NCBI GenBank assembly: GCA_016720625.1
Contig: JADKKG010000114.1
Span: 1-11,120, forward strand
DNA length: 11,120 nt
DNA from: Leptospiraceae bacterium
Lineage (GTDB): Bacteria > Spirochaetota > Leptospiria > Leptospirales > Leptospiraceae
Direction of reading: 5' to 3'
In this document: in pieces, positions 1 to 11,120 of the stretch
Numbering within the stretch: the stretch's first letter is position 1
How the letters are laid out: every line of letters begins with the position of its first letter
Translations under genes and position numbers: made by a program
The notes under the pieces: generated by a model
Databases searched by the model: none
The model's input: only the letters and a program-made list of their open reading frames with translations
Told to the model about the DNA's origin: nothing

Positions 1-526
1 TAGCATTTGATAACCAAGCGAAGACGAAAGCCCCTAAGGTTAACACACCGAATGCGTTACCTGCCCACCAACCAAGTGAAATTGAATAAAAAAAATTCCA
101 TTCGACCATTCCATTTAAACATAGACCTAGAACTCCGATCAATGCACTAATTGTAGGCGCAATGATAATTGCAATCAGAAAGAACATACCAACATTCTTT
201 AGACTAAGCGGATATTTGTTATTCTCTAGTCTGGATTTTAAAAAATAGGCACTGAACAAAGGCTCAAGACTATTTCCGATAACAGTGGCTATTACAAAAC
301 CAATCGGTGCACCTGTTGAATAGGTTGTAAAAAATGCTCCTATACTAATTGCAGGCAAATACTTATAACCCCCGAAAAGTAAAACAGGAAGTGACAGACC
401 AGAAGGAAGCCAAATTAATGTAACATTCGATTGAATAAATGCAATTTTTAAACCGATCTTGGCAAAAAGAAAAAAAGCAATGGAAATTAAAATATTCGTG
501 ATGATAAATCTAATCTTAGAATGCAT
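1..526 (-). CDS. N-terminal ~175 aa of a MASE1-domain membrane sensor protein (partial; 3' end lies beyond window start). Likely the input domain of a histidine kinase or GGDEF/EAL protein.
   Basis: Manual translation of the minus strand from ATG at 524-526 gives an open frame to position 1 with no stop. It is absent from the ORF track only because its stop is outside the window. The sequence is MHSKIRFIITNILISIAFFLFAKIGLKIAFIQSNVTLIWLPSGLSLPVLLFGGYKYLPAISIGAFF...LGWWAGNAFGVLTLGAFVFAWL. It shows multiple hydrophobic helices plus the 'WLPSG' and 'WWaGNafGvL' motifs typical of the MASE1 membrane sensor domain. There is an in-frame TAA just upstream of the ATG, and AGGAAG lies ~15 nt upstream. 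Confidence 0.6.
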   Translation of the reverse strand, partial: MHSKIRFIITNILISIAFFLFAKIGLKIAFIQSNVTLIWLPSGLSLPVLLFGGYKYLPAISIGAFFTTYSTGAPIGFVIATVIGNSLEPLFSAYFLKSRLENNKYPLSLKNVGMFFLIAIIIAPTISALIGVLGLCLNGMVEWNFFYSISLGWWAGNAFGVLTLGAFVFAWLSNA

Positions 527-554: not shown

Positions 555-1586
555 TTACTTTTCTTCTTCCTTGCGCTTAATCGGAAGTTTCCCCAGACTC
601 TCTCCACCTATGTTCAGAAATACACCTTCTAGTTTAGTTCCGGATAGAAGTCTTGAGAACACTTCTGCAACAGATTCTCCACCGAGGATTGCAAGGGGAG
701 CCATTGCTTCTGCAATCTTGACAAGTTGATCTTTATCGTTGAAAGACTGAAGTGCTGCGATGAAATCGGGGCTAATCGCCTTTGCCCGCTCAACCATGGA
801 TCTGACTTGCGTATCAAGCTCTTTTGCTGAGAGGTTGATATTTTGTTCCTTGAAGAATACTTCTTGATCTAATCTGGATTTGTCTCTTGTGAGTTGGACA
901 GAGTTGATCTTGTTCATCAAATCTTCTTTGTTCAACTGATTGTTTAATTTTAAGTCTTCGATAGATGCATTTGACTTTGCTCGGGTAGTTTCTAAATCTA
1001 GACGCTTTTCCAATTCTTCTTTTTCGTAACCGTAAATAGCTTTTTGGGTTGAATATTGAGATTCACTGGTTTCTTGTTTTACTTTCTCCATGAATTTTAA
1101 TATTTCTAGCTTTGACTTCTCGCGGGTAAGAGTTGTTGACTCCTGAATCAGAGTTTGTTGCGATTCTTGCATAAGCTTTGCAATGGCTGCATCTTTGATA
1201 AGAATGCCTGTAACTTCCACATCGTAGATTTTCATTTCATTTTCTGTAAAGTGGTAACCAGCATTATCTTCTCCGAGAATCGTCTTCTTTATAATGTTAA
1301 TTCCATTTGTGTAAAATTCTTCTACGCGGAAATTCTTTACAGCAGAGCGGATAACAGATCTAAATCTGTCTGTGAGAAATTTTACATAATTCTCTACATT
1401 AAACCATTTAGAAGAGTCATTTATAAAATTCAATCGGTAAGAAAGCTTAATCTGTATGCTTACAAAATCCTTTGACTCTACTTCAATTGTATCGGATACT
1501 TTGTTGTTAGCCACTCGAAGATATACATCTCGAATTAGGTTTTCATCTGTCTTTGGATTTCCTTTTGATAGAGAAAAAACTTGCAT
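555..1586 (-). CDS. Major vault protein (MVP) homolog, C-terminal part: shoulder (SPFH/band-7-like) domain, coiled-coil cap-helix and cap-ring region. Probably the downstream half of a frameshifted single mvp gene.
   Basis: ORF-track protein. 'VFSLSKGNPKTDENLIRDVYLRVANNKVSDTIEVESKDFVSIQIKLSYRLNF' aligns by eye with vertebrate MVP shoulder '[52 protein letters not shown]'. A long E/K/Q/L-rich predicted coiled coil follows (…KAIYGYEKEELEKRLDLETTRAK…). The C-terminal 'AISPDFIAALQSF…LAILGGESVAEVFSRLLSG' resembles the MVP cap-ring 'AIGPSTIRDLAVAG…LITDGSTPINLFNTAFG'. Confidence 0.75.
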   Translation of the reverse strand: MQVFSLSKGNPKTDENLIRDVYLRVANNKVSDTIEVESKDFVSIQIKLSYRLNFINDSSKWFNVENYVKFLTDRFRSVIRSAVKNFRVEEFYTNGINIIKKTILGEDNAGYHFTENEMKIYDVEVTGILIKDAAIAKLMQESQQTLIQESTTLTREKSKLEILKFMEKVKQETSESQYSTQKAIYGYEKEELEKRLDLETTRAKSNASIEDLKLNNQLNKEDLMNKINSVQLTRDKSRLDQEVFFKEQNINLSAKELDTQVRSMVERAKAISPDFIAALQSFNDKDQLVKIAEAMAPLAILGGESVAEVFSRLLSGTKLEGVFLNIGGESLGKLPIKRKEEEK

Positions 1587-1600
1587 ATCCTCGTCGAATT

Positions 1601-3046
1601 CTAAAAGGTAAGTGCTTGGTCAACTATGACTTTACGCTCTCCTGATTTGCCTACTACCATGATCGCATAACCAGCCCAAACTCCAAGAGAAACTGCGCCA
1701 TCGTATTTTGTATCAAGCGTGATATAGCGAGGAGGAGTATACTTATTTCTTCGTTGAAACGAATCGCTGGCTATTTGTTCTAATTCTTCTGCTTCTGGTT
1801 CTGATAGCAAGGAGTCAGCAACTGAAAATTCACGTTTGCTGGAAGCGGGAGAAGGTGTGGCTTGCGGTCTTGGAGGCAAAGTAGGCTTATCCGCTGGTAT
1901 TGCTTGCTTACGTAGTTCAGAATTAATTTCTATGGCACGATCATTTCCCGGAAACCAAAGACCTACTTGACGATGCTCCAAAATTCTACGAACAATTACT
2001 TCAAAGCGAGGATCAGGTAAGAACATATCGGGACCACGACGAAGTTTTACTTCACCAGTGAGACGGTTCATTACATAGCGCGCTTCTCCAAGTGGAATTG
2101 CTACAGCGTAGTGCACCTCGTTATCCTCATACTTGACGATTGCGTGTTCTTTACGTGGAAAATAAATCATTTGGTCTTTGCCAGTAAAGAAAAGCTCATC
2201 ACCTTCTTTGTATTGTGCCTCACCTTCTGTATAAGGAGCGATTACTTTGATGTAGATTCCTTTGATTTCACTTAGCTCAATCGCTCTATATTTGCGACTA
2301 CCATCTTTCTGGATAAATGTTTCCGTTGGTTCTGGAAATACAACCTCGGGACCTCGCACATAACGTTTATTACCATCTTCATCTAAGAGGATACAATATT
2401 CTAGCCGCTCAAGAGTAACTGCTTCGCGAATGTATTGGTTTCTAACATCTTTTACTACTTCAATACCAGTTGGGGGTATATAGAACGAAACCTCAGTTCC
2501 TTTAATGGTGATATGTTTCCCTAGTTTGAGTTTTGAAATATCAAATTCAGTCTGACCGGTGCTTGATTCACTTGTCTTGATGACCGCCTTATTCCAATTA
2601 TCCTTAGCGGCAGTCTCGTCATACACTCGCACAACCAAGTATTGATTCGAACGAAAATGATGTCCTTTTACTACATTTACCATTTGCCCCGACCAGAGCG
2701 GAAAAGAAATTGGTCCGGGGATATTCACTTTATGTCCCACATTGAGCTCGATGAGGCTATTCACTGTTCCAGTCTTTGGATTAGAATTGTCTTTCGCAGG
2801 ATTTTTTAGAACAAGATACCAACCTTCTGGAGATATTGCAAAGGTTTGAATGGCTCCTTCTAGAGAACATTTTTCAAAGCGCTTCGTTTTCTCATTGAAG
2901 ATGATTGGCTGATCGGTGTTGGAGAGACTTGCTTTATATGGACCAACGTAAATATTAATATTACCTTTTGTTTGGTCAGAAATAAATGCAAATTCATTTG
3001 GGGAGAGAATTAAATCCCTTTCGCGTTGTCTTTCTTCTACTGCCAT
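1601..3046 (-). CDS. Major vault protein (MVP) homolog, N-terminal part: tandem MVP (vault) repeat domains. Upstream half of the split mvp gene.
   Basis: ORF-track protein. The N-terminus 'ILSPNEFAFISDQTKGNINIYVGPYK' resembles MVP '[28 protein letters not shown]'. It has repeated ~55-aa units with the MVP-repeat signature (G-x-x-Y/F-I/F-P … E-V/I-V), e.g. 'GTEVSFYIPPTGIEVVKDV…', 'GDELFFTGKDQMIYFPRKEHAIVKY…' and 'RRGPDMFLPDPRFEVIVRRIL…'. AGGAG lies 7 nt upstream of the ATG at 3046. Confidence 0.75.
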   Translation of the reverse strand: MAVEERQRERDLILSPNEFAFISDQTKGNINIYVGPYKASLSNTDQPIIFNEKTKRFEKCSLEGAIQTFAISPEGWYLVLKNPAKDNSNPKTGTVNSLIELNVGHKVNIPGPISFPLWSGQMVNVVKGHHFRSNQYLVVRVYDETAAKDNWNKAVIKTSESSTGQTEFDISKLKLGKHITIKGTEVSFYIPPTGIEVVKDVRNQYIREAVTLERLEYCILLDEDGNKRYVRGPEVVFPEPTETFIQKDGSRKYRAIELSEIKGIYIKVIAPYTEGEAQYKEGDELFFTGKDQMIYFPRKEHAIVKYEDNEVHYAVAIPLGEARYVMNRLTGEVKLRRGPDMFLPDPRFEVIVRRILEHRQVGLWFPGNDRAIEINSELRKQAIPADKPTLPPRPQATPSPASSKREFSVADSLLSEPEAEELEQIASDSFQRRNKYTPPRYITLDTKYDGAVSLGVWAGYAIMVVGKSGERKVIVDQALTF

Positions 3047-3142
3047 AAAAATCTCCTGCTAATAGTTTATTCTGCAAATCTTAATTTGAATAATAGAACA
3101 AGCAAGTAGAAAAATATTCGTTTTATTTTTTACTTTGAGTAA
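3047..3142 (-). promoter_or_regulatory. AT-rich intergenic region between the che operon (cheY-like stop) and the vault-like gene. Likely contains the che-operon terminator and/or the vault-gene promoter and RBS.
   Basis: This is the only sizeable non-coding gap in the window (96 bp). On the minus strand it carries AGGAG 7 nt before the ATG at 3046, a possible sigma70-like TTGCTT-N16-TAAGAT, and a weak A/T-only hairpin followed by a T-run (minus strand, ~3115-3140). Confidence 0.3.
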
Positions 3143-3502
3143 CTACTCTAATTGTTTTAGCAGGTCAATCATTTCAGCATTTTTAAATGGTTTTACCATC
3201 CAGGCAGATGCTCCTGCGTCTTCTCCTTTTTTACGAATCTCAGCACTAGACTCGGTGGTCAGAATTACAATCTTCATTGATTTGCCATTGGGATGTTTTA
3301 AAACTAGTGGGACAAGTTCGATTCCAGTTTTTCCAGGCATATTTACGTCGAATATTCCAAAATCGAATTTTCCTTCTTCAATTTTTTTTAGCGCCTCATC
3401 GGCATTAGACGCTCTGACTACATCATAATCTTCGAGGCTTAGGGCAGTCTCAATTATATTCAAAACCATTGGAGAATCATCAACTATAAGAACTTTTTTC
3501 AT
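3143..3502 (-). CDS. cheY: CheY-like single-domain response regulator (receiver domain only), terminal gene of the che operon.
   Basis: 119 aa. It has the canonical receiver residues: 'LIVDDS' acidic pair, phospho-acceptor Asp in 'FDVNMPG', 'ILTT' Thr and 'VKP' Lys. AGGAAG RBS lies 4-5 nt upstream of the ATG. Confidence 0.9.
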   Translation of the reverse strand: MKKVLIVDDSPMVLNIIETALSLEDYDVVRASNADEALKKIEEGKFDFGIFDVNMPGKTGIELVPLVLKHPNGKSMKIVILTTESSAEIRKKGEDAGASAWMVKPFKNAEMIDLLKQLE

Positions 3503-3520
3503 AATACTTCCTTGCCTTTT

Positions 3521-4768
3521 TTATAAAATTGGAAATCGAACCCAAACGCATACATCTTTCATATTGTTTTCTCGTCTCATATTATTGTCTGTTGTATAAA
3601 ACGAAATACTCCCTTTGTGTAAATCAATAATTTTATTTACAACTGTCAAACCCAGACCAAATCGAAATGTTTCCTGCATGAATCTATCATCTACAACATT
3701 AGTCAATCGAAAAAATGGTTCAAAGATTTTATGCGCATTACTCTCCGTTATCCCCACTGTTCCGTCTGAATTCTTGTAGGCGGGATTCAGGATTCTGATT
3801 CCAATATCTGATTTATCATGGGAAAAGAGAATATAGATTGTATCCCCATCTTCCGAGTATTTAATTGCATTTGTTAATAATTCATCAAAGACTAGCTTCA
3901 AATTTTCTGGGCTGGCAGTAATTGATCTTCCGGCTAGGTCTCTTGGAAAATCACCCATAACTATCTTCTGATTTTTAATTCCAGCAACTGGTTTCATACC
4001 TTTTACCATTTCGGTTAATGCAGCATAGAAATCTTTCAGGGTTAATTTCCCTATATAAAAATCCTTTTCCGCTAATATGGCTTGTGTTTTAGTTAAACTA
4101 TCACTTAGTTTTAGAATTTCGTCGTAGTTGTCTTTTAATAGGTGATAAATTTTTTCATGAACTAAGTAAACTTTTTTCTCTTCATCTAATTTAGCTTTTG
4201 AAAATAAAATACTCAGTGTGCTAATAAGTGATCCGAGACCACTTCCATGGAAGAAGCTAATATTGATTTGGTGTATTAATTCATTTGCAAGAGATTCGAC
4301 TTTTCTAGTATCAAGTTCTTTTCTCCAATCAAATACTTTAATCATGGATTCGAAAACTTGTTTCTCGTTTGATTTAAAATCAGAAATCTTGGACATCACC
4401 TTTCCGTAGGTGATAGCCTTTGTTATCGCAAAATGAAAATTGAATTTATAAATTGGGTAGGAGATAATATCATACACATGATAGTTTTCCATCATTTGTA
4501 GAAACTTGTCTCCTTCCTCTCGATTGATTAATAGAATAACCAATTGAAATGGATATTCGGAAAGAATATTTCCAAGATTTTTTTGATTTTCGCTACTCGT
4601 GTCAAGAAAATCATAAACGAGTAGCCATGTGTCATCTGATTTAAGATAACTTGTGAGATTATCCATATTATCCGCTACGTTGAAAGCGTAAGTAAGATCA
4701 TCAACGTAGGTTTTCACCTGCTCTGTTATTTCTTTGTTTTGAGTATAGAGTAATATTTTATCAGACAT
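3521..4768 (-). CDS. Atypical cytoplasmic histidine-kinase-like protein: N-terminal receiver-like (probably pseudo-receiver) domain plus C-terminal HATPase_c (GHKL) catalytic domain. No canonical H-box is recognisable.
   Basis: 415 aa. The C-terminus has the N-box 'DELLTNAIKYS', a G2-like 'RFGLGLTVVNKIIDLHKGSIS' and an F-box-like 'FEPFFR', which is the classical HK ATP-binding domain. The N-terminal ~120 aa has a receiver-like beta/alpha pattern (KILLYT…WLLVYDFLD…QLVILL…DIISYP) but lacks the DD pair. No 'HExxxP' DHp motif is seen; the only candidate is the H in 'FFHGSGLGSLISTL'. Its start overlaps the cheB stop by 8 bp. Confidence 0.75.
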   Translation of the reverse strand: MSDKILLYTQNKEITEQVKTYVDDLTYAFNVADNMDNLTSYLKSDDTWLLVYDFLDTSSENQKNLGNILSEYPFQLVILLINREEGDKFLQMMENYHVYDIISYPIYKFNFHFAITKAITYGKVMSKISDFKSNEKQVFESMIKVFDWRKELDTRKVESLANELIHQINISFFHGSGLGSLISTLSILFSKAKLDEEKKVYLVHEKIYHLLKDNYDEILKLSDSLTKTQAILAEKDFYIGKLTLKDFYAALTEMVKGMKPVAGIKNQKIVMGDFPRDLAGRSITASPENLKLVFDELLTNAIKYSEDGDTIYILFSHDKSDIGIRILNPAYKNSDGTVGITESNAHKIFEPFFRLTNVVDDRFMQETFRFGLGLTVVNKIIDLHKGSISFYTTDNNMRRENNMKDVCVWVRFPIL

Positions 4769-5840
4769 ATTGGCCCGAGTAGTTTAAATAATTTTTTATC
4801 TTATTCACCATTTGAGAAAGGGGAAGTTGCTCTTCCACACCGCCGATTTCGTAAGCAACTTTCGGCATTCCGTATATGAGTGCCGACTGTTCACTTTCGC
4901 CAATGGTTCTCGATCCAGCTTCTCGCATTGCTAGTAACCCTTTTGCTCCGTCCATTCCCATGCCTGTCAAAATAACGCCAATTGTCTCACTGGCAAGTTT
5001 ATTATCAACAATGGAATGAAATAGAACATCCACAGATGGTCTATGTCCGTTAACTTTCTCGGCACGATTTAAGCCAACCGTGTGATTAATTCCATTTCTT
5101 TTATTTACCACTAAATGAAAGTCTCCCGGTGCAACGTAAATTCTTCCTGTCTGAATTATATCTTGATCTTTTGCTTCTCGCACATCAAGTCCGAAATCTT
5201 TAGAAACTCCCTTTGAAAAAGTAGCCGTAAATCCTGGCGGCATATGCTGAGTAATCACAATGCATGGAAAATCTCTAGGCACTGTAGATAGCACCTGACG
5301 TATTGCAGTCACTCCACCAGTTGATGCACCAATAGCCACAAGATTGTATTTACTCTTTCCATTTTTACCTGCCATAGGATTATTTATGAGTGGCAAGGAT
5401 TTATATTTTAATTGCTTGAGCCATCTATCAATATTGATCGTAGATGCTGTTTTAATCTTTTGAATTAATTCTGCTTGCGTTGATTCGAGAGTAATCGCTC
5501 CACCATCTGGCTTTGTGACAAAGTCAACTGCACCATATTGCATTGCTAAAATTGCTTTCTCTGAACCTTCCTCAGTTGTGCTACTGACCATGATCACAGG
5601 GATTGGATACTGAGGCATAAGCTTTCGCAAAAATTCCACTCCATCCATGCGAGGCATTTCTACATCTAGAGTTAAAACATCAGGCTCTTTTTCTGGAATC
5701 AGCTCGCTTGCTTCAAAAGGATTTGAAGCTTCTCCTACCACTTCAATACGCGGATCGGTCGTTATCATTTTTCGAATAACATTTCGAACGACTCTTTGGT
5801 CATCCACAATAAATACTTTAATTTTTTTGTTATTGTCCAT
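4761..5840 (-). CDS. cheB: Chemotaxis response regulator protein-glutamate methylesterase CheB (receiver domain plus methylesterase).
   Basis: 359 aa. N-terminal receiver ('VFIVDDQ', 'LTLDVEMPRMDG', 'TKP'). C-terminal methylesterase with the catalytic triad context 'IGASTGG' (Ser), 'QHMPPGFT' (His) and 'TGMGMDG' (Asp). Overlaps the cheA 3' end by 11 bp. Confidence 0.95.
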   Translation of the reverse strand: MDNNKKIKVFIVDDQRVVRNVIRKMITTDPRIEVVGEASNPFEASELIPEKEPDVLTLDVEMPRMDGVEFLRKLMPQYPIPVIMVSSTTEEGSEKAILAMQYGAVDFVTKPDGGAITLESTQAELIQKIKTASTINIDRWLKQLKYKSLPLINNPMAGKNGKSKYNLVAIGASTGGVTAIRQVLSTVPRDFPCIVITQHMPPGFTATFSKGVSKDFGLDVREAKDQDIIQTGRIYVAPGDFHLVVNKRNGINHTVGLNRAEKVNGHRPSVDVLFHSIVDNKLASETIGVILTGMGMDGAKGLLAMREAGSRTIGESEQSALIYGMPKVAYEIGGVEEQLPLSQMVNKIKNYLNYSGQYV

Positions 5841-7710
5841 GTGCTGCTTCGGATTCTTTGTTTTCCTTGTAGTAATTGTTAATAAAGAATCTAATGTCTA
5901 AAATCATTCCAATATTACCACTTCCCAGGATTGTGCAACCTGAAAAGCCCTTTGTTCCTTTTAAATAATCCGGAATTGGTTTAATTACAACCGATTGATT
6001 TCCTACAATTCCATCAAATACTAGGGCTAGCGAATTATTCTTATACTCCACAATAATTACATATAAAGAATTTTCGTAGTTAGAGTCCTTGTCACTTGAA
6101 TCGTGATTGAGTAATCTCTCTACGGAGACAACGGGTATTAGCTGCTCTCGGAAGCGAATTACTTTTTTGTCCTGATCGATATAGTCGATTTTCGATTCTG
6201 CCAAATTCAGTGTTTCTTTTACGTCTATTGTGGGGATAATATAGAATACCCCGTTGTAGATTACCACCATACCTTCAATGATAGCAATTGTAAGAGGTAG
6301 CTTTAGAATGAACGATGCTCCCTGGTCTTTTTTCGTCTTGATTTCAACATCGCCGTTGATCTTTGCTATATTTCTGCGAACTATATCAAGTCCTACTCCG
6401 CGTCCTGAAATATCAGTTACTCTATCACTAGTCGAGAATCCAGGTTGAAAAATAAAATCCCAAATTCTTTCGTCTTTTAGATTTTCGTCTTCTCCTTCTT
6501 TGATTAATCCGCGAGCCATTGCTTTTTTCAAAATTCTATCTCTATCTAAGCCTGCACCATCATCAGAAATAATAATCCATACTTCATTTCCTGAATGCAT
6601 TGCTTCAATCTTGATATGACCGGATTCTACTTTGCCTTTGGCTAATCTCTCTTTGCCTGTTTCCAATCCATGATCGATACAGTTGCGGATAATATGAACT
6701 AGTGGATCTGTTAATATTTCAAGGGCATTCTTATCAATTTCTGTTTCTTTTCCCGTAACTTGAAGACCCACTTTCTTTCCTGTTTTTTGTGCTAAGTCTC
6801 GAACAAGTCGTTCCATTTTATTAAACAAACCTTCGAGGGTAATCATCCTTAGCTGCAAGGATACTTCTTGTAGATTACGGACTACTTTACGTAAATAGGA
6901 AGATTGAATAGAAAAGTTCGGAAGATCTAGTTCTTTGATGTCTGGATTTTGAGTTACAAGAGATTCAGCTATCACTAGCTCACCAATCATGTCTAGTAGG
7001 TAATCTAATTTCTCTGTTTCGATTCGAATGTCTCTTTTTACTGTAGCTTGTCCATTCGAATTACCGTTATTTGCCTCTATAGTATTTTGAATCTTTTTTT
7101 CTAAAACAGGATTTTCTTGCGTGGCTCTCTCTGTAATATGTTTATCTAACTTATCAGATTCTGAATTTTCCGGAGTAGGGGCAGGTTCATTCGAAACTGG
7201 CAACTCCTTATTATCCTCTTCTGTTATTGGAGTATCAGAAAGCACAATTTTCTTTTTGAAGATTCCAAACCTAGGCTCTTCTTTCTTTGGCTCTGAAGAC
7301 TCTGCTTTTAGATTTTCTTTTATATAGAAGAGTCGGGGAATTAAAGTATCCGCCTTCTCCTTATACATTGTATCTGTTTTGTTTTCGTTGAGATGTGAAA
7401 AAATTTCATATAGAGTATCTCTTGCTTCCATGAAGAGCTGAATCATTTTTTGATCAAGAAGAGAATTGTCATTTCTTACAATCTCTAATAATGATTCTGC
7501 TGAATGCGATAGGTTTACTATCACATTGAAATTGAAAAATCCCGCATTTCCTTTGAGTGTATGGAAATAGCGGAATAATGAATTTACCTTATCTGCGTCA
7601 ACCGTTGACTCAGTTAAACTTTTTTCCAATTGGATCAGAATTGCTTCTGCTTTATCCAATATCTCTTGTGAATCAAGCACAAGGTCTGAAAGTTCATTTT
7701 CTCCAAGCAT
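5830..7710 (-). CDS. cheA: Chemotaxis histidine kinase CheA (P1-HPt, P3 dimerisation, P4 HATPase, P5 CheW-like). The P2 domain is apparently replaced by a low-complexity linker.
   Basis: 626 aa. HPt motif 'FHTLKGNAGFF' with the phospho-His at about residue 50. Dimerisation segment 'LDYLLDMIGELVIAESLV'. Kinase boxes 'HIIRNCIDHGLE', 'DDGAGLD' and 'GRGVGLDIV'. C-terminal CheW-like domain. Residues ~133-226 are an E/K/P/S/N-rich low-complexity stretch with no P2-like fold signature. Confidence 0.95.
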   Translation of the reverse strand: MLGENELSDLVLDSQEILDKAEAILIQLEKSLTESTVDADKVNSLFRYFHTLKGNAGFFNFNVIVNLSHSAESLLEIVRNDNSLLDQKMIQLFMEARDTLYEIFSHLNENKTDTMYKEKADTLIPRLFYIKENLKAESSEPKKEEPRFGIFKKKIVLSDTPITEEDNKELPVSNEPAPTPENSESDKLDKHITERATQENPVLEKKIQNTIEANNGNSNGQATVKRDIRIETEKLDYLLDMIGELVIAESLVTQNPDIKELDLPNFSIQSSYLRKVVRNLQEVSLQLRMITLEGLFNKMERLVRDLAQKTGKKVGLQVTGKETEIDKNALEILTDPLVHIIRNCIDHGLETGKERLAKGKVESGHIKIEAMHSGNEVWIIISDDGAGLDRDRILKKAMARGLIKEGEDENLKDERIWDFIFQPGFSTSDRVTDISGRGVGLDIVRRNIAKINGDVEIKTKKDQGASFILKLPLTIAIIEGMVVIYNGVFYIIPTIDVKETLNLAESKIDYIDQDKKVIRFREQLIPVVSVERLLNHDSSDKDSNYENSLYVIIVEYKNNSLALVFDGIVGNQSVVIKPIPDYLKGTKGFSGCTILGSGNIGMILDIRFFINNYYKENKESEAAHGQ

Positions 7711-7718
7711 TATAGAGC

Positions 7719-8207
7719 CTAAGCAATTCCTTTTACATCTTTCTCATGAATAAACTTATTCAGGTCGATCAATATTTTCAATGTATCGCCTGACTTTCCA
7801 ATGGAATCGACGAATCGTTCCATATTTGCTTCTTCAAATCCTGGTGAGGGCTCAATACAATCTTTTGGAATTTTTAAAACTTCTTTAACTCCATCGACGA
7901 TAAGCCCTGCACTTAGATTGTTAAAATTCATAATCAATATGCAGGTGAATTCGGTATAGTCTATCTTGGGTAAACCGAATCTTAGCCGCACATCAATTAC
8001 GGGAATAATCTTCCCTCGAAGGTTGATTACTCCCTTAACATATTCTGGTAAGTTTGGAACAAAAGTCACAGGTTGAAACGCAATGATTTCAATCAAGTAA
8101 CGAATCTCTATACCATACTCTCTTCCATCGATGAAAAAGATGATATAGAGATCCTCCATAGTATCTTCAGATTCTTCTAATTGTTCTTCTTCAAATGTCG
8201 TTACCAT
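7719..8207 (-). CDS. cheW: Chemotaxis coupling protein CheW.
   Basis: 162 aa. The CheW-like domain pattern is seen throughout (…IEIRYLIEIIAFQPVTFVPNLPEYVKGVINLRGKIIPVIDVRLRFG…LIVDGVKEVLKIP). It sits between the MCP and cheA with 12-bp and 8-bp gaps. Confidence 0.9.
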   Translation of the reverse strand: MVTTFEEEQLEESEDTMEDLYIIFFIDGREYGIEIRYLIEIIAFQPVTFVPNLPEYVKGVINLRGKIIPVIDVRLRFGLPKIDYTEFTCILIMNFNNLSAGLIVDGVKEVLKIPKDCIEPSPGFEEANMERFVDSIGKSGDTLKILIDLNKFIHEKDVKGIA

Positions 8208-8219
8208 ACACTTTACTCC

Positions 8220-11120
8220 TTACTTCAAATCAATTTTTTTCTTTCCGCCAGATTGTTGGTCTCTTCTTTTATCATCTTTTGATTTCTTAATTTGAAATCT
8301 TTTTACCATTGTTTGGAATGCTTCTGCTTGGCTAGACAACTCAAGACTAGCTGCTGAGCTTTCTTCTGCTGTAGCAGCAGCACTCATTGTCACCTGTGAA
8401 ATCTGATTGATACCAGTTGTAGTCTCTACGACCGACGAAGACTGCTCAATCGAAGCACTCGCGATGTCTTTCACTAGCTCTGTAACATCTACAACACCAG
8501 CTGTCATCTTATTCAATTCGTTTGCAGTTCTTCCCGCAATGTCCATACCAGAGCGAACTGTTTTAATCGAGCCTTCAATCATCTTAGTGGTTTCTTTCGC
8601 AGCATTCGCGCTACGAGAAGCGAGATTACGAACTTCTTCCGCCACCACGTTAAATCCTTTTCCATGTTGACCTGCACGGGCAGCTTCCACCGCAGCGTTT
8701 AATGCGAGTATATTTGTTTGGAATGCGATTGCATCAATTTCTTTGATAATCTTCGCAATGTTTTCGGAAGTTTCACTGATTTCTTCCATCGCTTTGAGCA
8801 TTCCCTTCATTTCGTTATTACTAGAAACTGCTTGGTCTTTCACGTTCATAGCTTGGTCACTTGCGTCCTTCGCATTCTTCGCGTTATCCTTAGCTTTGAG
8901 TTCGATTACTGCCAGCGTTGAAGTAATCTCTTCTACGCTACTAGCTTGTTCGTTTGATCCTTGCGAGAGAGATTGGCTGGAGTCAGCCACTTGTCTAGAG
9001 CTAATGAGGATTTGATCCGAAGCATTGATGATTTCACCAATGAGCTCATTGAAGGAATCAACGATGAGAGTGAGTGCTTTTTTAATCTCAGCGAAATCTC
9101 CCATAAAGTCTTTTGTTACTTCAACAGTTAAGTCACCTGCTGACATAGAAGAGAGGATACGCGAAATTTCCCCCACATAATCGTTTAACGTTACCAGACT
9201 TGTATTAAGAGCAGTCTTAATAGTAGCATGATCTCCCTTGTAATCACCGAGCATTCTAGCTTTTAAGTTTCCTTTAGACAATTCTAGCAACACTGCGGAA
9301 GCTTCTTGCACTGGAAGGATAACAGCGTCTAATGTGTTGTTTACCCCATCCACAATCTTACGGAAGTCACCTTGGTGTTTGGTCGCATCTGCACGAGTTG
9401 CAAGCTTACCATCAATAGCCGCTTTCGCAAGCATACCTGCATCAGCCACAAGTGCGTTTACGTTTTCAATACAACGATTAAGGTTGTTCTTTAGAGTGTT
9501 AAAATCCCCATTATAAGTATCCGTAATTTGATTTGGAATTGCACCGCGAGAAATTCTATCTACATAATCAGCAGCAACGTTAAGAGGACCAATCACCGAG
9601 TCTAATGTCTGATTAACTCCTTCCACAATCTTACGATAGTCGCCTTGGTGTTTAGTAGCATCAGCACGAGTTGCAAGCTTACCTTCGATAGCTGCTTTCG
9701 CAAGCATACCGGCATCAGCCACAAGAGCATTTACATTATCAATTGCGTTGTTTAAGTTGTTTTTAATTGTGTTAAAGTCTCCATTGTAAGTATCCGTAAT
9801 CTTAGTCGGAATAGCCCCGCGGGAAATTTTATCTACATAATCCGCGGCAACATTAAGAGGACCTATCACAGAGTCTAACGTCTGGTTAACCCCTTCTACA
9901 ATCTTACGATAATCGCCTTGGTGTTTAGTAGCATCAGCGCGAGTTGCAAGTTTACCTTCTACTGCTGCTTTCGCAAGCATACCGGCATCAGCCACAAGTG
10001 CGTTTACATTATCAATCGCATTGTTTAAGTTGTTCTTAAGAACGTTGAAATCACCGTTGTAAGTGTCAGTAATTTTAGCAGGAATAGCACCACGAGAGAT
10101 TTTATCTACGTAATCAGCAGCAACATTGAGAGGACCGATCACAGAGTCTAACGTCTGATTAACCCCTTCCACAATTTTACGATAGTCGCCTTGGTGTTTA
10201 GTTGCATCCGCACGTGTTGCGAGCTTACCTTCAATAGCTGCTTTCGCGAGCATACCGGCATCAGCCACAAGTGCGTTTACATTATCAATCGCATTGTTTA
10301 AGTTGTTCTTGATAACATTAAAGTCACCGTTATAAGTATCGCTGATCTTTTCAGGGATAGCACCACGAGAGATTTTATCAACATAATCAGCAGCAACGTT
10401 GAGAGGACCGATTACCGAGTCTAACGTCTGATTAACCCCTTCTACAATTCTACGATAGTCACCTTGGTGTTTAGTAGCATCAGCACGTGTTGCAAGCTTA
10501 CCTTCTACTGCTGCTTTCGCAAGCATACCGGCATCAGAGACGAGGTTGCCGATATTATTTTTCATTAGCATCAACCACTCATGAATTTGATCTTGTTCGG
10601 AAGCTTTGTTCATTGTCGCAGTCAAATCACCATTCGATATCTTATTCACATAGGCTACAAGATCAGTAAGCCACAAATGAACTCCGTTGACGGCATCTTT
10701 CATTTTTTGATGATCACCACGACATTCGATCTCCATTCTTTCGCGAAGATTTCCGCCTCTAATAAGTCTTAATACTCTATTTCCTTCCCCTATTGGAATT
10801 AGAATCGCATCGAGCATTGTGTTTACGCCAATTAAAACATCTGCATAGGCACCTTTGAATTGTTCTGGTTTTCCTCTTTCATCTAACATACCTGCTTTAG
10901 AGGCTTCTGTAAGACGAAGTAATTCTTTTTGTAAGGCTTGCAAGACTTGCATAACAGTGATTAAACTCTTTGAGAGTAAATCATTTTCAGAGCGAACATT
11001 TACTTTGACGGAGAGATTTCCTTCAGAAATGGCAACTGCTGCCTCTGCTTGTTGGTTAATCGCATTGATCGCCAAATTGAGGTTATTCTTTAGAGTGTTG
11101 AAATCGCCATTATACGTATC
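8220..11120 (-). CDS. mcp: Methyl-accepting chemotaxis protein with a very long tandem poly-HAMP array and a C-terminal MCP signalling domain (partial; the N-terminus lies beyond the window end).
   Basis: The ORF is open to the window edge. The track's 'M' at 11075 is a TTG inside a HAMP unit, not the real start. The signalling domain shows the hallmark '[37 protein letters not shown]'. Candidate methylation sites are 'SSVEEITST' and 'SIEQSSS'. Upstream are at least ~14 consecutive HAMP-like units (AS1-connector-AS2, e.g. '[18 protein letters not shown]…[19 protein letters not shown]' and '[25 protein letters not shown]'). No transmembrane segment falls in the in-window part. Confidence 0.95.
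9171..10535 (-). repeat. Tandem 273-bp (91-aa) direct repeats inside the MCP coding sequence. There are four near-identical protein copies plus one half-diverged copy, and each unit encodes two HAMP domains (di-HAMP module). More diverged HAMP units continue to the window end.
   Basis: The marker 'gaggacc…tctaa(t/c)gtctg(a/g)ttaac' recurs at 9584, 9857, 10130 and 10403, an exact 273-bp period. The proteins are ~95% identical ([10 protein letters not shown][IV][80 protein letters not shown]). DNA copies are only ~85-90% identical by eye, mostly at synonymous positions. Confidence 0.9.

What the first reader, a model, noticed from the sequence alone, without database searches (positions are those of the whole stretch)
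3521..4768. Non-canonical receiver-like/GHKL kinase inserted between cheB and cheY
This gene is translationally coupled (8-bp overlap with cheB, 18 bp before cheY) inside a chemotaxis operon. It combines a degenerate receiver-like N-terminus (no DD pair, questionable phospho-Asp) with a classical HK catalytic domain but has no recognisable H-box/DHp. The REC-then-kinase order is inverted relative to hybrid HKs. The position is analogous to the uncharacterised extra ORF between cheB2 and cheY2 in spirochaete cheW2-cheA1-cheB2-orf-cheY2 operons. It could be an auxiliary kinase or ATPase modulating CheY/CheB phosphorylation, or a partner-switch-like regulator.
Basis: partly seen in the sequence, partly recalled or inferred. 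Interest (0 to 1): 0.5.

Follow-up and report, generated by a model that had tools for sequence, protein, structure and literature searches.

The report
Receiver-kinase-like gene inside chemotaxis operon
The gene between cheB and cheY encodes a receiver-then-kinase signalling protein from an uncharacterised spirochaete family that has a dead-looking receiver, a remodelled phosphorylation helix and usually no phosphorylatable histidine, so it probably tunes chemotaxis-type signalling in a non-standard way.

Summary
The ORF is real: 3521-4768, minus strand, 415 aa, with an 8-bp overlap with cheB and 18 bp before cheY. It has three parts.

- **Pseudo-receiver (1-107).** It keeps D53 but lacks the acidic pair, the Thr and the Lys.
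- **Helical linker plus a divergent DHp-like hairpin (158-233).** No Pfam HisKA model detects it. His166 aligns with the canonical phospho-His.
- **HATPase_c domain (241-415).** The N, F and G2 boxes are classical. The G1 box is atypical.

The closest solved structure is LvrB of Leptospira, the prototype Rec-controlled histidine kinase. The REC-then-kinase order is therefore a known class.

What is new is the family. The middle domain defines a discrete group of about 365 sequence clusters, almost all about 415 aa, and every member that carries an organism name is from Spirochaetota, mostly Leptospirales. It has no curated model. Only about 20% of members have His at the H-box position. A QGxGxG insertion, Glu296 and Asn328 (never Asp) are nearly invariant.

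Near relatives sit at cheB/cheA-X-cheY in at least 13 genomes, and other paralogues flank other che clusters.

I judge it most likely a CheA-independent modulator of the adjacent CheY, as kinase and/or phosphatase. A His-independent pseudokinase role is almost as likely. The Borrelia analogy fails, because bb0569 is an atypical MCP.

The parts
3521..4768 (-). ORF X, 415 aa plus stop: pseudo-receiver, helical linker, DHp-like hairpin and HATPase_c
4448..4768 (-). Pseudo-receiver domain, residues 1-107, with a (beta-alpha)5 fold. Key residues are T9, Q10, D53, N82 and Y104.
   Evidence: A family profile hits solved receivers at E 4e-28. Pfam Response_reg gives no hit for the query but hits 22 of 27 relatives.
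4319..4447 (-). Long helix continuing receiver helix 5 (residues 108-150), alphaS-like. It ends in the conserved F146-D-W148-K/R motif.
   Evidence: AF2 predicts helix 108-150, with low confidence over 144-159. W148 is conserved in 93 of 133 representatives.
4070..4297 (-). DHp-like helical hairpin, residues 158-233: helix 158-191, beta-hairpin 193-202, helix 205-233
   Evidence: AF2 model. Foldseek matches LvrB, HK853 and CusS, the last at TM 0.80. HMMER aligns helix 2 plus CA with HK853 at E 9e-11. hhalign results are.
4271..4273 (-). Codon CAC for His166, the residue aligned with the phospho-accepting His of HisKA H-boxes. It is followed by Q167 where canonical kinases have Glu/Asp.
   Evidence: hhalign, sequence, family distribution
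4226..4249 (-). Gly-rich family signature H174-G-S-G-L-G-S-L181 (family consensus QGxGxGxL). It is a 6-residue insertion relative to HisKA helix 1.
   Evidence: G175, G177 and G179 are present in 123-131 of 133 representatives. The insertion appears in the hhalign alignment. AF2 confidence is low over 174-180.
3524..4048 (-). Catalytic ATP-binding (CA, HATPase_c) domain, residues 241-415
   Evidence: Pfam HATPase_c 287-413, E 9.3e-15; AF2; solved-structure hits
3854..3883 (-). N-box E296-L-L-T-N300-A-I-K303-Y-S305. N300 and K303 align with HK853 N380 and K383. E296 is invariant in the family.
3749..3787 (-). Atypical G1 region N328-P-A-Y-K-N-S-D335-G-T-V-G339-I340
   Evidence: N328 is N in 111 and S in 22 of 133 representatives, never D. 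D335 is present in only 32 of 133. Gap placement is ambiguous.
3644..3724 (-). F-box F349-E-P-F-F-R354 through G2 box G371-L-G373-L-T375 (ATP-lid region)
   Evidence: P351, G371 and G373 are 133 of 133; R354 is 132 of 133.
4761..5840 (-). cheB (REC plus CheB methylesterase). Its stop overlaps the ORF X start.
3143..3502 (-). cheY, a canonical 119-aa single-domain receiver, 18 nt downstream of ORF X. It is the most constantly adjacent gene.
5830..11075 (-). Rest of the operon: cheA (5830-7710), cheW (7719-8207) and a poly-HAMP MCP (8220-11075)

Best explanation
**Identity (shown).** ORF X belongs to a discrete, uncharacterised family seen so far only in Spirochaetota (mostly Leptospirales) and derived from Rec-controlled histidine kinases. 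Its layout is receiver, alphaS-like helix, remodelled DHp, then CA. In this copy the receiver is a pseudo-receiver. The DHp keeps a His (H166) at the canonical position.

**Mechanism (inferred).**
- It forms a DHp-mediated dimer that sets the phosphorylation level of the co-translated CheY independently of CheA.
- The nucleotide-bound CA domain would phosphorylate H166 for transfer to CheY.
- Alternatively or in addition, the DHp surface around [H/R/K]166-Q167-x-N169 would bind CheY~P and dephosphorylate it.
- The operon would then have a second, receptor-independent handle on its response regulator, as CheS3 provides in the Che3 pathway of R. centenum.
- Because the receiver cannot be phosphorylated, input would come from protein contacts or nucleotide state, not from CheA.
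For: - **Architecture and fold.** AF2 predicts receiver, long helix, helical hairpin and CA. The best solved match is LvrB (Rec-DHp-CA, E 1e-15), followed by DHp-CA cores of HK853, CusS (TM 0.80) and CpxA.
- **H166 register.** hhalign against canonical HisKA kinases gives probability 99.8% and puts H166 on the H-box His. The H166-to-N300 spacing of 134 equals the HK853 H260-to-N380 spacing of 120 plus the two insertions of 6 and 8 residues.
- **His conservation in the near clade.** H166 is kept in 11 of 13 che-embedded orthologues, down to 32% identity.
- **Nucleotide site.** The N, F and G2 boxes are intact.
- **Synteny.** X immediately precedes a CheY in 13 full loci plus one fragment, with short gaps or overlaps. 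These include Leptospira yanagawae, L. ilyithenensis, L. jelokensis and L. levettii.
- **No known phosphatase.** No CheZ/CheX/CheC-type hit appears in the window.
- **Precedents.** CheS3, not CheA3, phosphorylates CheY3 (PMC3868531). LvrB is a working Rec-HK (PMC13269768).
Against: - The residue after the His is invariantly Gln in the near clade. HisKA kinases have Glu/Asp there, which established knowledge says is needed for autophosphorylation.
- Two orthologues in the same operon slot have Arg166 (L006, L013), and a close relative whose gene context was not examined (P0019) has Lys.
- Only 26 of 133 family representatives have His at this position, and no other linker/DHp column exceeds 20% His. 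The conserved architecture therefore evolved for something that does not need phospho-His.
- The helix-1 stretch where kinases carry variable partner-specificity residues is here an invariant QGxGxGxL(S/T) motif.
- The G1 Asp is probably replaced by Asn328.
- The H-box alignment on its own is weak (probability 15%).
- The HisKA phosphatase motif (His+4 Thr/Asn) is not matched in register, since Asn is at His+3.
- No biochemical data exist.
Confidence: 0.4

Rival explanations
1. ORF X is a His-independent pseudo-histidine kinase, that is, a receiver-regulated GHKL module. The conserved activity of the whole family would be ATP binding or hydrolysis, or phosphorylation of a hydroxyl residue. It would use Glu296 as general base and the Gly-rich DHp loop as substrate, ligand or docking site. 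H166 in this clade would be incidental or would only bind phosphate. Within the che operon it would act as an ATP-dependent switch or scaffold on Che proteins.
For: - His at position 166 occurs in only 20% of 133 representatives. The rest have E, Y, S, R, D or Q.
- R166 and K166 occur among close relatives.
- These positions are invariant or nearly so: E296, N300, P351, G371 and G373 (133 of 133), R354 (132) and G175/G177/G179 (123-131).
- E296 sits four residues before the Mg-binding Asn. That is the place of the catalytic Glu of GHL ATPases and of SpoIIAB- and PDK-type Ser kinases (established knowledge). Canonical HisKA relatives have Ile/Val there.
- Position 183 is Ser/Thr in 118 of 133.
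- 103 of 133 members have a canonical receiver, so they look like response regulators with a kinase-like output.
- The pseudo-HK concept and DivL (Tyr for His, a fold hit at rank 45) are precedents (PMC12632262).
Against: - H166 is conserved through the che-embedded clade.
- No conserved acceptor residue or partner has been identified.
- If N328 replaces the adenine-binding Asp, ATP binding itself is uncertain.
- HATPase_c_2 (anti-sigma type) does not reach threshold (E 0.076).
Confidence: 0.35
2. ORF X is a dedicated CheY~P phosphatase or phosphate sink, with kinase activity lost. The DHp-like helix binds CheY~P, and Q167/N169 position the attacking water. The nucleotide in the CA domain acts only as a cofactor. 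This would replace the CheZ/CheX/CheC that is absent from the operon.
For: - The [H/R/K]-Q-x-N motif is conserved in the che-embedded clade: Q167 and N169 are invariant in alignment A2 and constant across the additional loci.
- The conserved His is not essential for HisKA phosphatase activity (PMC12632262).
- No known phosphatase family is found in the window.
- X-CheY adjacency is the most constant feature of the neighbourhood.
Against: - The amide residue is at His+3, not at His+4 as in HisKA or His+5 as in HisKA_3.
- The idea does not explain family members outside che clusters.
- It does not explain the strict conservation of the whole triphosphate-binding site.
Confidence: 0.15
3. ORF X is a partner-switching Ser kinase or anti-sigma-like regulator of the RsbW/SpoIIAB or LvrC type.
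For: - LvrC of Leptospira is a receiver fused to a Bergerat-fold anti-sigma domain (PMC13269768).
- Distant family members lie near STAS and HATPase_c_2 genes.
- A SpoIIE-domain gene lies about 8 kb upstream in L. levettii.
- An E-x-x-x-N N-box is typical of these kinases (established knowledge).
Against: - Pfam assigns HATPase_c (27 of 27), not HATPase_c_2 (2 of 27, weak).
- A DHp-like hairpin is present, which RsbW-type proteins lack.
- No STAS, sigma or PP2C gene is in the window.
Confidence: 0.07
4. ORF X is an ordinary hybrid histidine kinase, or a decaying non-functional gene.
For: Public annotations call relatives 'sensor histidine kinase', 'response regulator' or 'hybrid sensor histidine kinase/response regulator'.
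Against: - No HisKA hit appears in any of 27 members.
- The receiver lacks 4 of 5 catalytic residues.
- The ORF is intact and 71-98% identical in 13 relatives, with many invariant positions.
- Synteny holds across genera.
Confidence: 0.03

Closest known systems
LvrB of Leptospira interrogans, the prototype Rec-controlled histidine kinase (Rec-HK, 'hybrid response regulator'); PDB 8vc9
   Same: - Same domain order: N-terminal receiver, helical linker, DHp, CA.
- Similar length (378 vs 415 aa) and the same bacterial order.
- Best full-length structural match (Foldseek E 1e-15).
- The phospho-sites are at similar positions: LvrB D56 and H161, ORF X D53 and H166 (PMC13269768).
   Different: - Sequence identity is only 14% in the structural alignment.
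- LvrB has a canonical receiver and an H-box recognised as HisKA. ORF X has a pseudo-receiver, Gln after the His, a Gly-rich insertion, a beta-hairpin at the DHp tip and an atypical G1 box.
- The ORF X family mostly lacks the His.
- LvrB is paired with LvrA and LvrC, not with Che proteins.
CheS3 of Rhodospirillum centenum (Che3 chemotaxis-like pathway)
   Same: It is a receiver-containing histidine kinase encoded inside a che-like cluster next to a single-domain CheY. It, not CheA, phosphorylates that CheY (PMC3868531).
   Different: - CheS3 has functional receiver domains that CheA3 phosphorylates.
- It is a demonstrated His autokinase.
- It belongs to an unrelated lineage (Alphaproteobacteria).
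- No sequence comparison between CheS3 and ORF X was made here.
Pseudo-histidine kinases such as DivL of Caulobacter (Tyr in place of His)
   Same: They have a DHp-CA fold without the phospho-accepting His. The ORF X family has Tyr at that position in 16 of 133 members and other residues in most. DivL is among the fold hits (4q20).
   Different: - DivL has PAS input domains and no N-terminal receiver.
- ORF X itself retains a His.
- The QGxGxG motif and the N328 feature are family-specific.
LvrC (LIC11110): a receiver fused to an RsbW-like Bergerat-fold anti-sigma domain
   Same: It is a receiver-regulated GHKL-fold output that has no phospho-His chemistry, and it comes from Leptospira (PMC13269768).
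   Different: - LvrC has no DHp-like hairpin.
- The ORF X CA domain is of the histidine-kinase type (HATPase_c), not the RsbW type.
bb0569 of Borrelia burgdorferi (between cheB2 and cheY2)
   Same: Only the position, between cheB and cheY in a cheW-cheA-cheB-x-cheY cluster.
   Different: bb0569 encodes an atypical MCP (PMC10703414). It has no kinase or receiver domain.

Membership tests
Rec-controlled histidine kinase (Rec-HK, LvrB type) | N-terminal receiver domain that can be phosphorylated (acidic pair, Asp, Thr/Ser, Lys) | tested here: not met
   The fold and homology are present. Only D53 of the five residues is kept; the others are T9, Q10, N82 and Y104. It is a pseudo-receiver by the definition in PMC12632262.
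Rec-controlled histidine kinase (Rec-HK, LvrB type) | Helical linker (alphaS) joining the receiver to the DHp | tested here: met
   AF2 predicts a continuous helix 108-150 from receiver helix 5. The junction 144-159 has low confidence.
Rec-controlled histidine kinase (Rec-HK, LvrB type) | DHp helical hairpin carrying the phospho-accepting His in an H-box | tested here: inconclusive
   The hairpin is present and superposes on DHp-CA cores. H166 aligns to the H-box His, but the middle region alone gives only 15% probability. The next residue is Gln, not Glu/Asp, and His is present in only 20% of the family.
Rec-controlled histidine kinase (Rec-HK, LvrB type) | CA domain with N, G1, F and G2 boxes | tested here: inconclusive
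   The N, F and G2 boxes are met. G1 is atypical: N328 sits at the strand end, and a 7-residue insertion precedes D335xxxG339.
Rec-controlled histidine kinase (Rec-HK, LvrB type) | Autophosphorylation on His and transfer to a response regulator | not testable with these tools
   This needs biochemistry.
Pfam HisKA-type dimerisation/phospho-acceptor families (HisKA, HisKA_2, HisKA_3, HWE_HK, His_kinase) | Profile match at or near the curated threshold | tested here: not met
   No such hit appears for the query at E<=1, nor for any of 27 family members at E<=0.01.
Classical hybrid histidine kinase | Kinase core followed by a C-terminal receiver | tested here: not met
   The receiver-like domain is N-terminal. 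Nothing follows the CA domain.
Pseudo-receiver (PsR) domains | Receiver fold lacking at least one of the five catalytic residues | tested here: met
   definition from PMC12632262
Anti-sigma Ser kinases (RsbW/SpoIIAB, HATPase_c_2) | HATPase_c_2 profile match, no DHp, and STAS/sigma partners nearby | tested here: not met
   HATPase_c_2 scores E 0.076, 13.5 bits, against a cut-off of 27.4. A DHp-like hairpin is present. No STAS or sigma gene is in the window.
New family defined here: receiver, FDW/QGxGxG middle domain, CA (seen only in Spirochaetota, mostly Leptospirales) | Middle-domain profile match; QGxGxG; ExxxN N-box; N/S at the G1 strand end; length about 415 aa | tested here: met
   The query clade tops the profile search at E 1e-52. 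There are 365 clusters at E<=1e-3 and 317 at E<=1e-10, almost all with the domain at about 121-285. Signature residues are present, with H174 in place of Q.
Known CheY-P phosphatases (CheZ, CheX/CheC/FliY) | Profile match to those families | tested here: not met
   No such Pfam or NCBIfam hit appears for ORF X.

The most novel reading that the evidence does not exclude
The family is a new class of receiver-regulated GHKL enzyme. It kept the histidine-kinase scaffold but abandoned phospho-His chemistry. The H-box became a Gly-rich loop, Glu296 serves as general base, and the adenine-binding Asp became Asn/Ser. On this reading the family works as an ATPase or Ser/Thr kinase, possibly with altered nucleotide preference, and is a previously unrecognised auxiliary component of Leptospirales chemosensory pathways. 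ORF X would be its che-embedded, receiver-dead form.
Probability: 0.3. Interest if true: 0.7.

Novelty: new variant of a known kind. Interest (0 to 1): 0.45.

Why it matters
- **Unexplored signalling in Leptospirales.** Leptospira carries unusually many receiver-kinase 'hybrid response regulators', and only LvrB is understood mechanistically.
- **A coherent, unmodelled subfamily.** This family has about 365 clusters at 50% identity and no curated model. Public annotation calls its members 'response regulator' or 'sensor histidine kinase'. Most members cannot be histidine kinases, yet they keep a strictly conserved nucleotide site and a unique Gly-rich motif where the phospho-His region should be.
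- **Repeated association with che clusters.** This suggests an auxiliary Che component specific to this lineage, inserted between CheB and CheY.
- **What characterisation would show.** It would show how a pseudo-kinase, or a second kinase/phosphatase, shapes a chemosensory output. It would also correct automatic annotation.
- **A natural experiment.** Orthologues vary between receiver-dead with His and receiver-intact with Arg. This offers a way to study how phosphorylation sites migrate within one scaffold.

Tried and rejected
- **Wide-alignment locus search.** The search for related loci with the 27-sequence alignment failed because no conserved stretch was found. I repeated it with the closer set A2.
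- **Exact lookup of the window protein.** It is not on record, so the source contig is unknown. The nearest relatives are uncultured Leptospiraceae MAGs.
- **Middle-domain profile against solved structures by sequence.** Only de novo designed helical proteins appeared, at E>0.2. The DHp assignment therefore rests on fold, spacing and profile-profile alignment.
- **Middle-only hhalign.** It reproduces the H166 register but at only 15% probability.
- **Literature.** A search for a described Leptospira che-operon kinase found nothing specific. A search on pseudo-kinase and chemosensory terms gave only general frameworks.
- **Borrelia bb0569 analogy.** Rejected.
- **Classical HisKA phosphatase motif.** Rejected as a match, because Asn is at His+3 rather than His+4.
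- **HisKA_2/HWE-like H-box.** I considered this from the E-x-x-H-x-x-N look of the sequence. I rejected it because of the wrong register and the absence of a profile hit.
- **Promoter and terminator scan of 2900-5000.** Promoter-like sites were at shuffle level. There was no minus-strand terminator between ORF X and cheY or directly after cheY.
- **Receiver degeneracy versus His166.** The association is apparent (Fisher p 1e-6 on a redundant set). It is weaker on non-redundant representatives and is not corrected for phylogeny, so I treat it only as a lead.
- **N328 or D335 at the adenine pocket.** This could not be settled because the tools give no model coordinates.
Full report
**1. What is in the window**

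All large ORFs lie on the minus strand and form one gene string:
- a cytoplasmic-looking MCP with seven HAMP_2 stretches (8220-11075)
- CheW (7719-8207)
- CheA (5830-7710; Hpt, P3, HATPase_c and CheW domains)
- CheB (4761-5840)
- the ORF in question (3521-4768, 415 aa)
- a canonical 119-aa CheY (3143-3502)
- a major-vault-protein-like gene

The ORF's ATG overlaps the cheB stop in ATGTCTGA, an 8-bp overlap. Eighteen nucleotides containing AAGGAAG separate its stop from the cheY ATG.

**2. Domains of the protein**

*Curated models.* Pfam recognises only HATPase_c (residues 287-413, E 9.3e-15). It finds no receiver and no HisKA-type domain, even at E<=1. NCBIfam gives only sub-threshold matches to many histidine-kinase equivalogs through the CA domain.

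*The N-terminus is a receiver homologue.*
- 37 homologues were found, all about 415 aa. Every one that carries an organism name is from Leptospirales or an unclassified Spirochaetia MAG; most carry none. The more distant ones carry Pfam Response_reg.
- A profile of 27 of them hits solved receivers at E 4e-28.
- AlphaFold2 (mean pLDDT 77) gives a (beta-alpha)5 fold for residues 4-107.
- The receiver is degenerate. T9/Q10 replace the acidic pair, D53 is retained, N82 replaces Thr/Ser and Y104 replaces Lys. By the definition in PMC12632262 this is a pseudo-receiver that keeps its Asp.

*The middle region is a DHp-like hairpin.*
- In the model, receiver helix 5 continues into a long helix (108-150). 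There follow a poorly predicted junction (144-159), a helix 158-191, a small beta-hairpin 193-202, a helix 205-233, and the CA domain from 241.
- Foldseek against the PDB ranks LvrB of Leptospira first (8vc9, Rec-DHp-CA, E about 1e-15, aligned over the full length).
- Next come DHp-CA cores of HK853, CusS (TM 0.80 normalised to the target, rmsd 3.3), CpxA and others.
- By sequence, HK853 DHp helix 2 plus CA aligns to residues about 209-389 at E 9e-11.
- hhalign of the family against 21 canonical HisKA kinases gives probability 99.8%. It extends through helix 1 and puts H166 exactly on the H-box His. A 6-residue insertion (the Gly-rich segment) follows the H-box, and an 8-residue insertion (the beta-hairpin) sits at the hairpin tip.
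- The middle region alone reproduces this register, but with only 15% probability.
- An independent check is spacing. H166 to N300 is 134 residues. This equals the 120 residues from H260 to N380 in HK853 plus the 6 and 8 inserted residues. The HK853 numbering follows the alignment.

So 'no recognisable DHp' is true for curated models (0 of 27 family members hit any HisKA-type Pfam model). It is not true for fold and remote homology.

*The CA domain.*
- The N-box is E296-L-L-T-N300-A-I-K303-Y-S305.
- The F-box is F349-E-P-F-F-R354.
- The G2 box is G371-L-G373-L-T.
- All three align with HK853.
- The G1 box is unusual. The strand ends in N328-P, and seven extra residues precede D335-G-T-V-G339-I.
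- Sequence aligners place the gap so that D335 matches the G1 Asp.
- However, the strand pattern I-x-I-x-N328 equally matches I-x-V-x-D.
- In the family, N328 is conserved (see section 3), whereas D335 is not.

**3. The family**

A profile of the middle region only (residues 121-286) was scored against 1.84 billion representative proteins.
- It found 365 proteins at E<=1e-3 and 317 at E<=1e-10.
- Almost all are 405-430 aa, with the domain at about 121-285. A few are longer, with extra N-terminal sequence.
- The small gap between the two counts shows a discrete family, not a tail of ordinary kinases.
- The members with names are annotated 'response regulator', 'sensor histidine kinase' or 'hybrid sensor histidine kinase/response regulator'. 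They come from Leptospira, Leptospiraceae, Leptospirales or Spirochaetota MAGs.

In 133 full-length non-redundant representatives:

| Feature | Count out of 133 |
|---|---|
| Canonical receiver (acidic pair, Asp, Lys) | 103 |
| His at position 166 | 26 (others: E 17, Y 16, S 14, R 11, D 9, Q 9, and more) |
| His in any other column of linker or hairpin | never above 20% |
| Q174 | 114 (H in 13) |
| G175 / G177 / G179 | 123 / 131 / 131 |
| Ser/Thr at position 183 | 118 |
| E296, N300, P351, G371, G373 | 133 each |
| R354 | 132 |
| N328 | N 111, S 22, never Asp |
| D335 | 32 |

In the canonical HisKA relatives the position of E296 is Ile/Val. In GHL ATPases and in SpoIIAB- or PDK-type protein kinases, a Glu four residues before the Mg-binding Asn is the catalytic base (established knowledge).

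The family as a whole therefore looks like a response regulator whose output is a kinase-like module that has given up the phospho-His.

**4. The query's clade and its genomic context**

*Loci.* A scan of one genome per species returned 53 loci. About 29 of them encode family members. Annotating them with the window's own Che proteins gave the following.
- Thirteen full loci have the gene directly upstream of a CheY and downstream of CheB (L001-L004, L008-L010, L012-L014) or of CheA (L005, L006); a fourteenth (L016) has it downstream of CheB but the contig ends inside the gene.
- These loci include cultured Leptospira yanagawae, L. ilyithenensis and L. jelokensis. One further fragment (L022) also shows X followed by CheY.
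- In L. levettii the string is MCP-CheW-CheA-CheB-X-CheY-CheY'-PAS kinase, with overlapping or abutting genes.
- A second paralogue group (Pro at position 166) sits just upstream of another che cluster in five Leptospira species; a sixth locus (L020, an uncultured Leptospira) has a copy adjoining a che cluster on the opposite strand.
- A third group follows that cluster's CheY (L017, L023).
- A fourth group (Phe at 166) precedes a CheY-CheA cluster (L028, L029).
- Three near-clade copies are orphans with unrelated neighbours (L007, L011, L015).
- Distant members lie beside other two-component genes: HisKA kinases, canonical Rec-HKs, a 7TMR-DISM/HATPase_c_2 protein, STAS, EAL and HD_5.

*Key residues in the che-embedded near clade.*
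- The motif is I-[H/R/K]166-Q167-x-N169-I.
- His is present in 11 of 13 loci and Arg in two (L006, L013). A close relative whose gene context was not examined (P0019) has Lys.
- Copies with degenerate receivers mostly have His. Copies with canonical receivers often have Arg.
- This pattern is suggestive but is not corrected for shared ancestry.

**5. How it most likely works**

*Shown.* ORF X is a Rec-HK-derived protein with a pseudo-receiver, a DHp-like hairpin with His at the canonical place, and an intact triphosphate/Mg site. It is co-translated with CheB and CheY in a conserved arrangement.

*Inferred, my preferred reading (confidence about 0.4).* It dimerises through the hairpin and controls the phosphorylation level of the adjacent CheY independently of CheA. 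It would do this by H166-mediated phosphotransfer and/or by dephosphorylating CheY~P. Its pseudo-receiver would serve as a phosphorylation-independent regulatory or docking module. CheS3 of R. centenum is the functional precedent: a receiver-containing kinase in a che cluster that, rather than CheA, phosphorylates the cluster's CheY (PMC3868531). LvrB is the structural precedent (PMC13269768).

*Against this reading.*
- Gln rather than Glu/Asp follows the His.
- Two orthologues in the same operon slot have Arg.
- The region where kinases carry variable partner-specificity residues is an invariant Gly-rich motif.
- The G1 Asp is probably replaced.
- Four-fifths of the family lack the His.

*Main rival (about 0.35).* The conserved function is His-independent: an ATPase, a Ser/Thr kinase or an ATP-dependent scaffold. 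H166 would then be secondary.

*Other readings.*
- A phosphatase-only reading (about 0.15) draws on the conserved Q167/N169 amides and the lack of any CheZ/CheX/CheC gene. However, the register differs from the known HisKA motif.
- A partner-switch kinase (about 0.07) has little support.
- An ordinary hybrid kinase or a decaying gene (about 0.03) has little support.

**6. Comparison with what is known, and novelty**

- The receiver-then-kinase order is a recognised class. Rec-HKs, earlier called hybrid response regulators, are reported to make up a large share of Leptospira two-component genes (PMC5863495, PMC13269768).
- The Borrelia gene between cheB2 and cheY2, bb0569, encodes an atypical MCP (PMC10703414). 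That analogy is positional only.
- Pseudo-receivers and pseudo-histidine kinases are established concepts (PMC12632262).
- What I could not find described is this particular family. Its distinguishing features are the FDW/QGxGxG middle domain, the invariant Glu296 and Asn/Ser328, the general loss of the His, and the repeated association with che clusters.
- I therefore rate it a new variant of a known kind, with moderate interest (0.45).
- The most novel reading not excluded is that the family is a new receiver-regulated GHKL enzyme class serving as an auxiliary Che component in Leptospirales. I give this a probability of about 0.3.

Noticed in passing
window 555-3046, minus strand (junction near 1619-1622): The major-vault-protein-like gene downstream of cheY is split by a frameshift. 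Residues 1-474 of the single 829-aa homologue in a related genome (L060) map to 3046-1622 in one frame. Residues 476-824 map to 1619-573 in another. This could be a pseudogene, a sequencing error or recoding. A bacterial MVP homologue next to a che operon is itself unusual, and it is conserved in L001-L003.
   Followed up: partly
window 9318-10537 (inside the MCP gene 8220-11075, minus strand): There are 4.5 copies of a 273-bp tandem repeat (85% matches). They encode near-identical 91-aa HAMP_2 units. Pfam counts seven HAMP_2 stretches, so the receptor is a poly-HAMP type.
   Followed up: partly
window about 1-520, minus strand: An open reading frame for a hydrophobic membrane protein starts near 520 and runs off the left end of the window. 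In the related locus L060 the gene at that place is a MASE1-PAS-HisKA-HATPase-REC hybrid kinase.
   Followed up: partly
window 5830-7710 and the whole window: CheA has Hpt, P3, P4 and P5 but no detectable P2 (CheY-binding) domain. No cheR, cheD, cheX, cheC or cheZ was detected in the window.
   Followed up: no
L017 (about 5457-6806, 7653-8915, 14377-15627) and L023 (7872-9140, 14621-15868): In Leptospira ilyithenensis and L. idonii, further paralogues of the same family flank a second che cluster on both sides. They have Pro or Gly at the His position. L017 has two tandem copies upstream.
   Followed up: partly
L059 (Leptospira levettii) 4822-14473: The orthologous operon continues after X with two single-domain receivers and an 828-aa PAS kinase, all abutting. 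This suggests a chemosensory pathway wired into further two-component signalling rather than a plain motility pathway.
   Followed up: no
family alignment, query positions 166 versus 9, 10, 53 and 104: Copies with a degenerate receiver tend to have His166. Copies with a canonical receiver tend to lack it, often with Arg in the near clade. It looks as if one phosphorylatable site or the other is kept. The pattern is not corrected for phylogeny.
   Followed up: partly
family alignment, query positions 183 and 296: Ser/Thr at position 183, four residues after the Gly-rich motif, occurs in 118 of 133 representatives. Glu296 is invariant at the position of the GHKL catalytic base. Together they hint at hydroxyl-directed phosphotransfer or ATP hydrolysis.
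   Followed up: no
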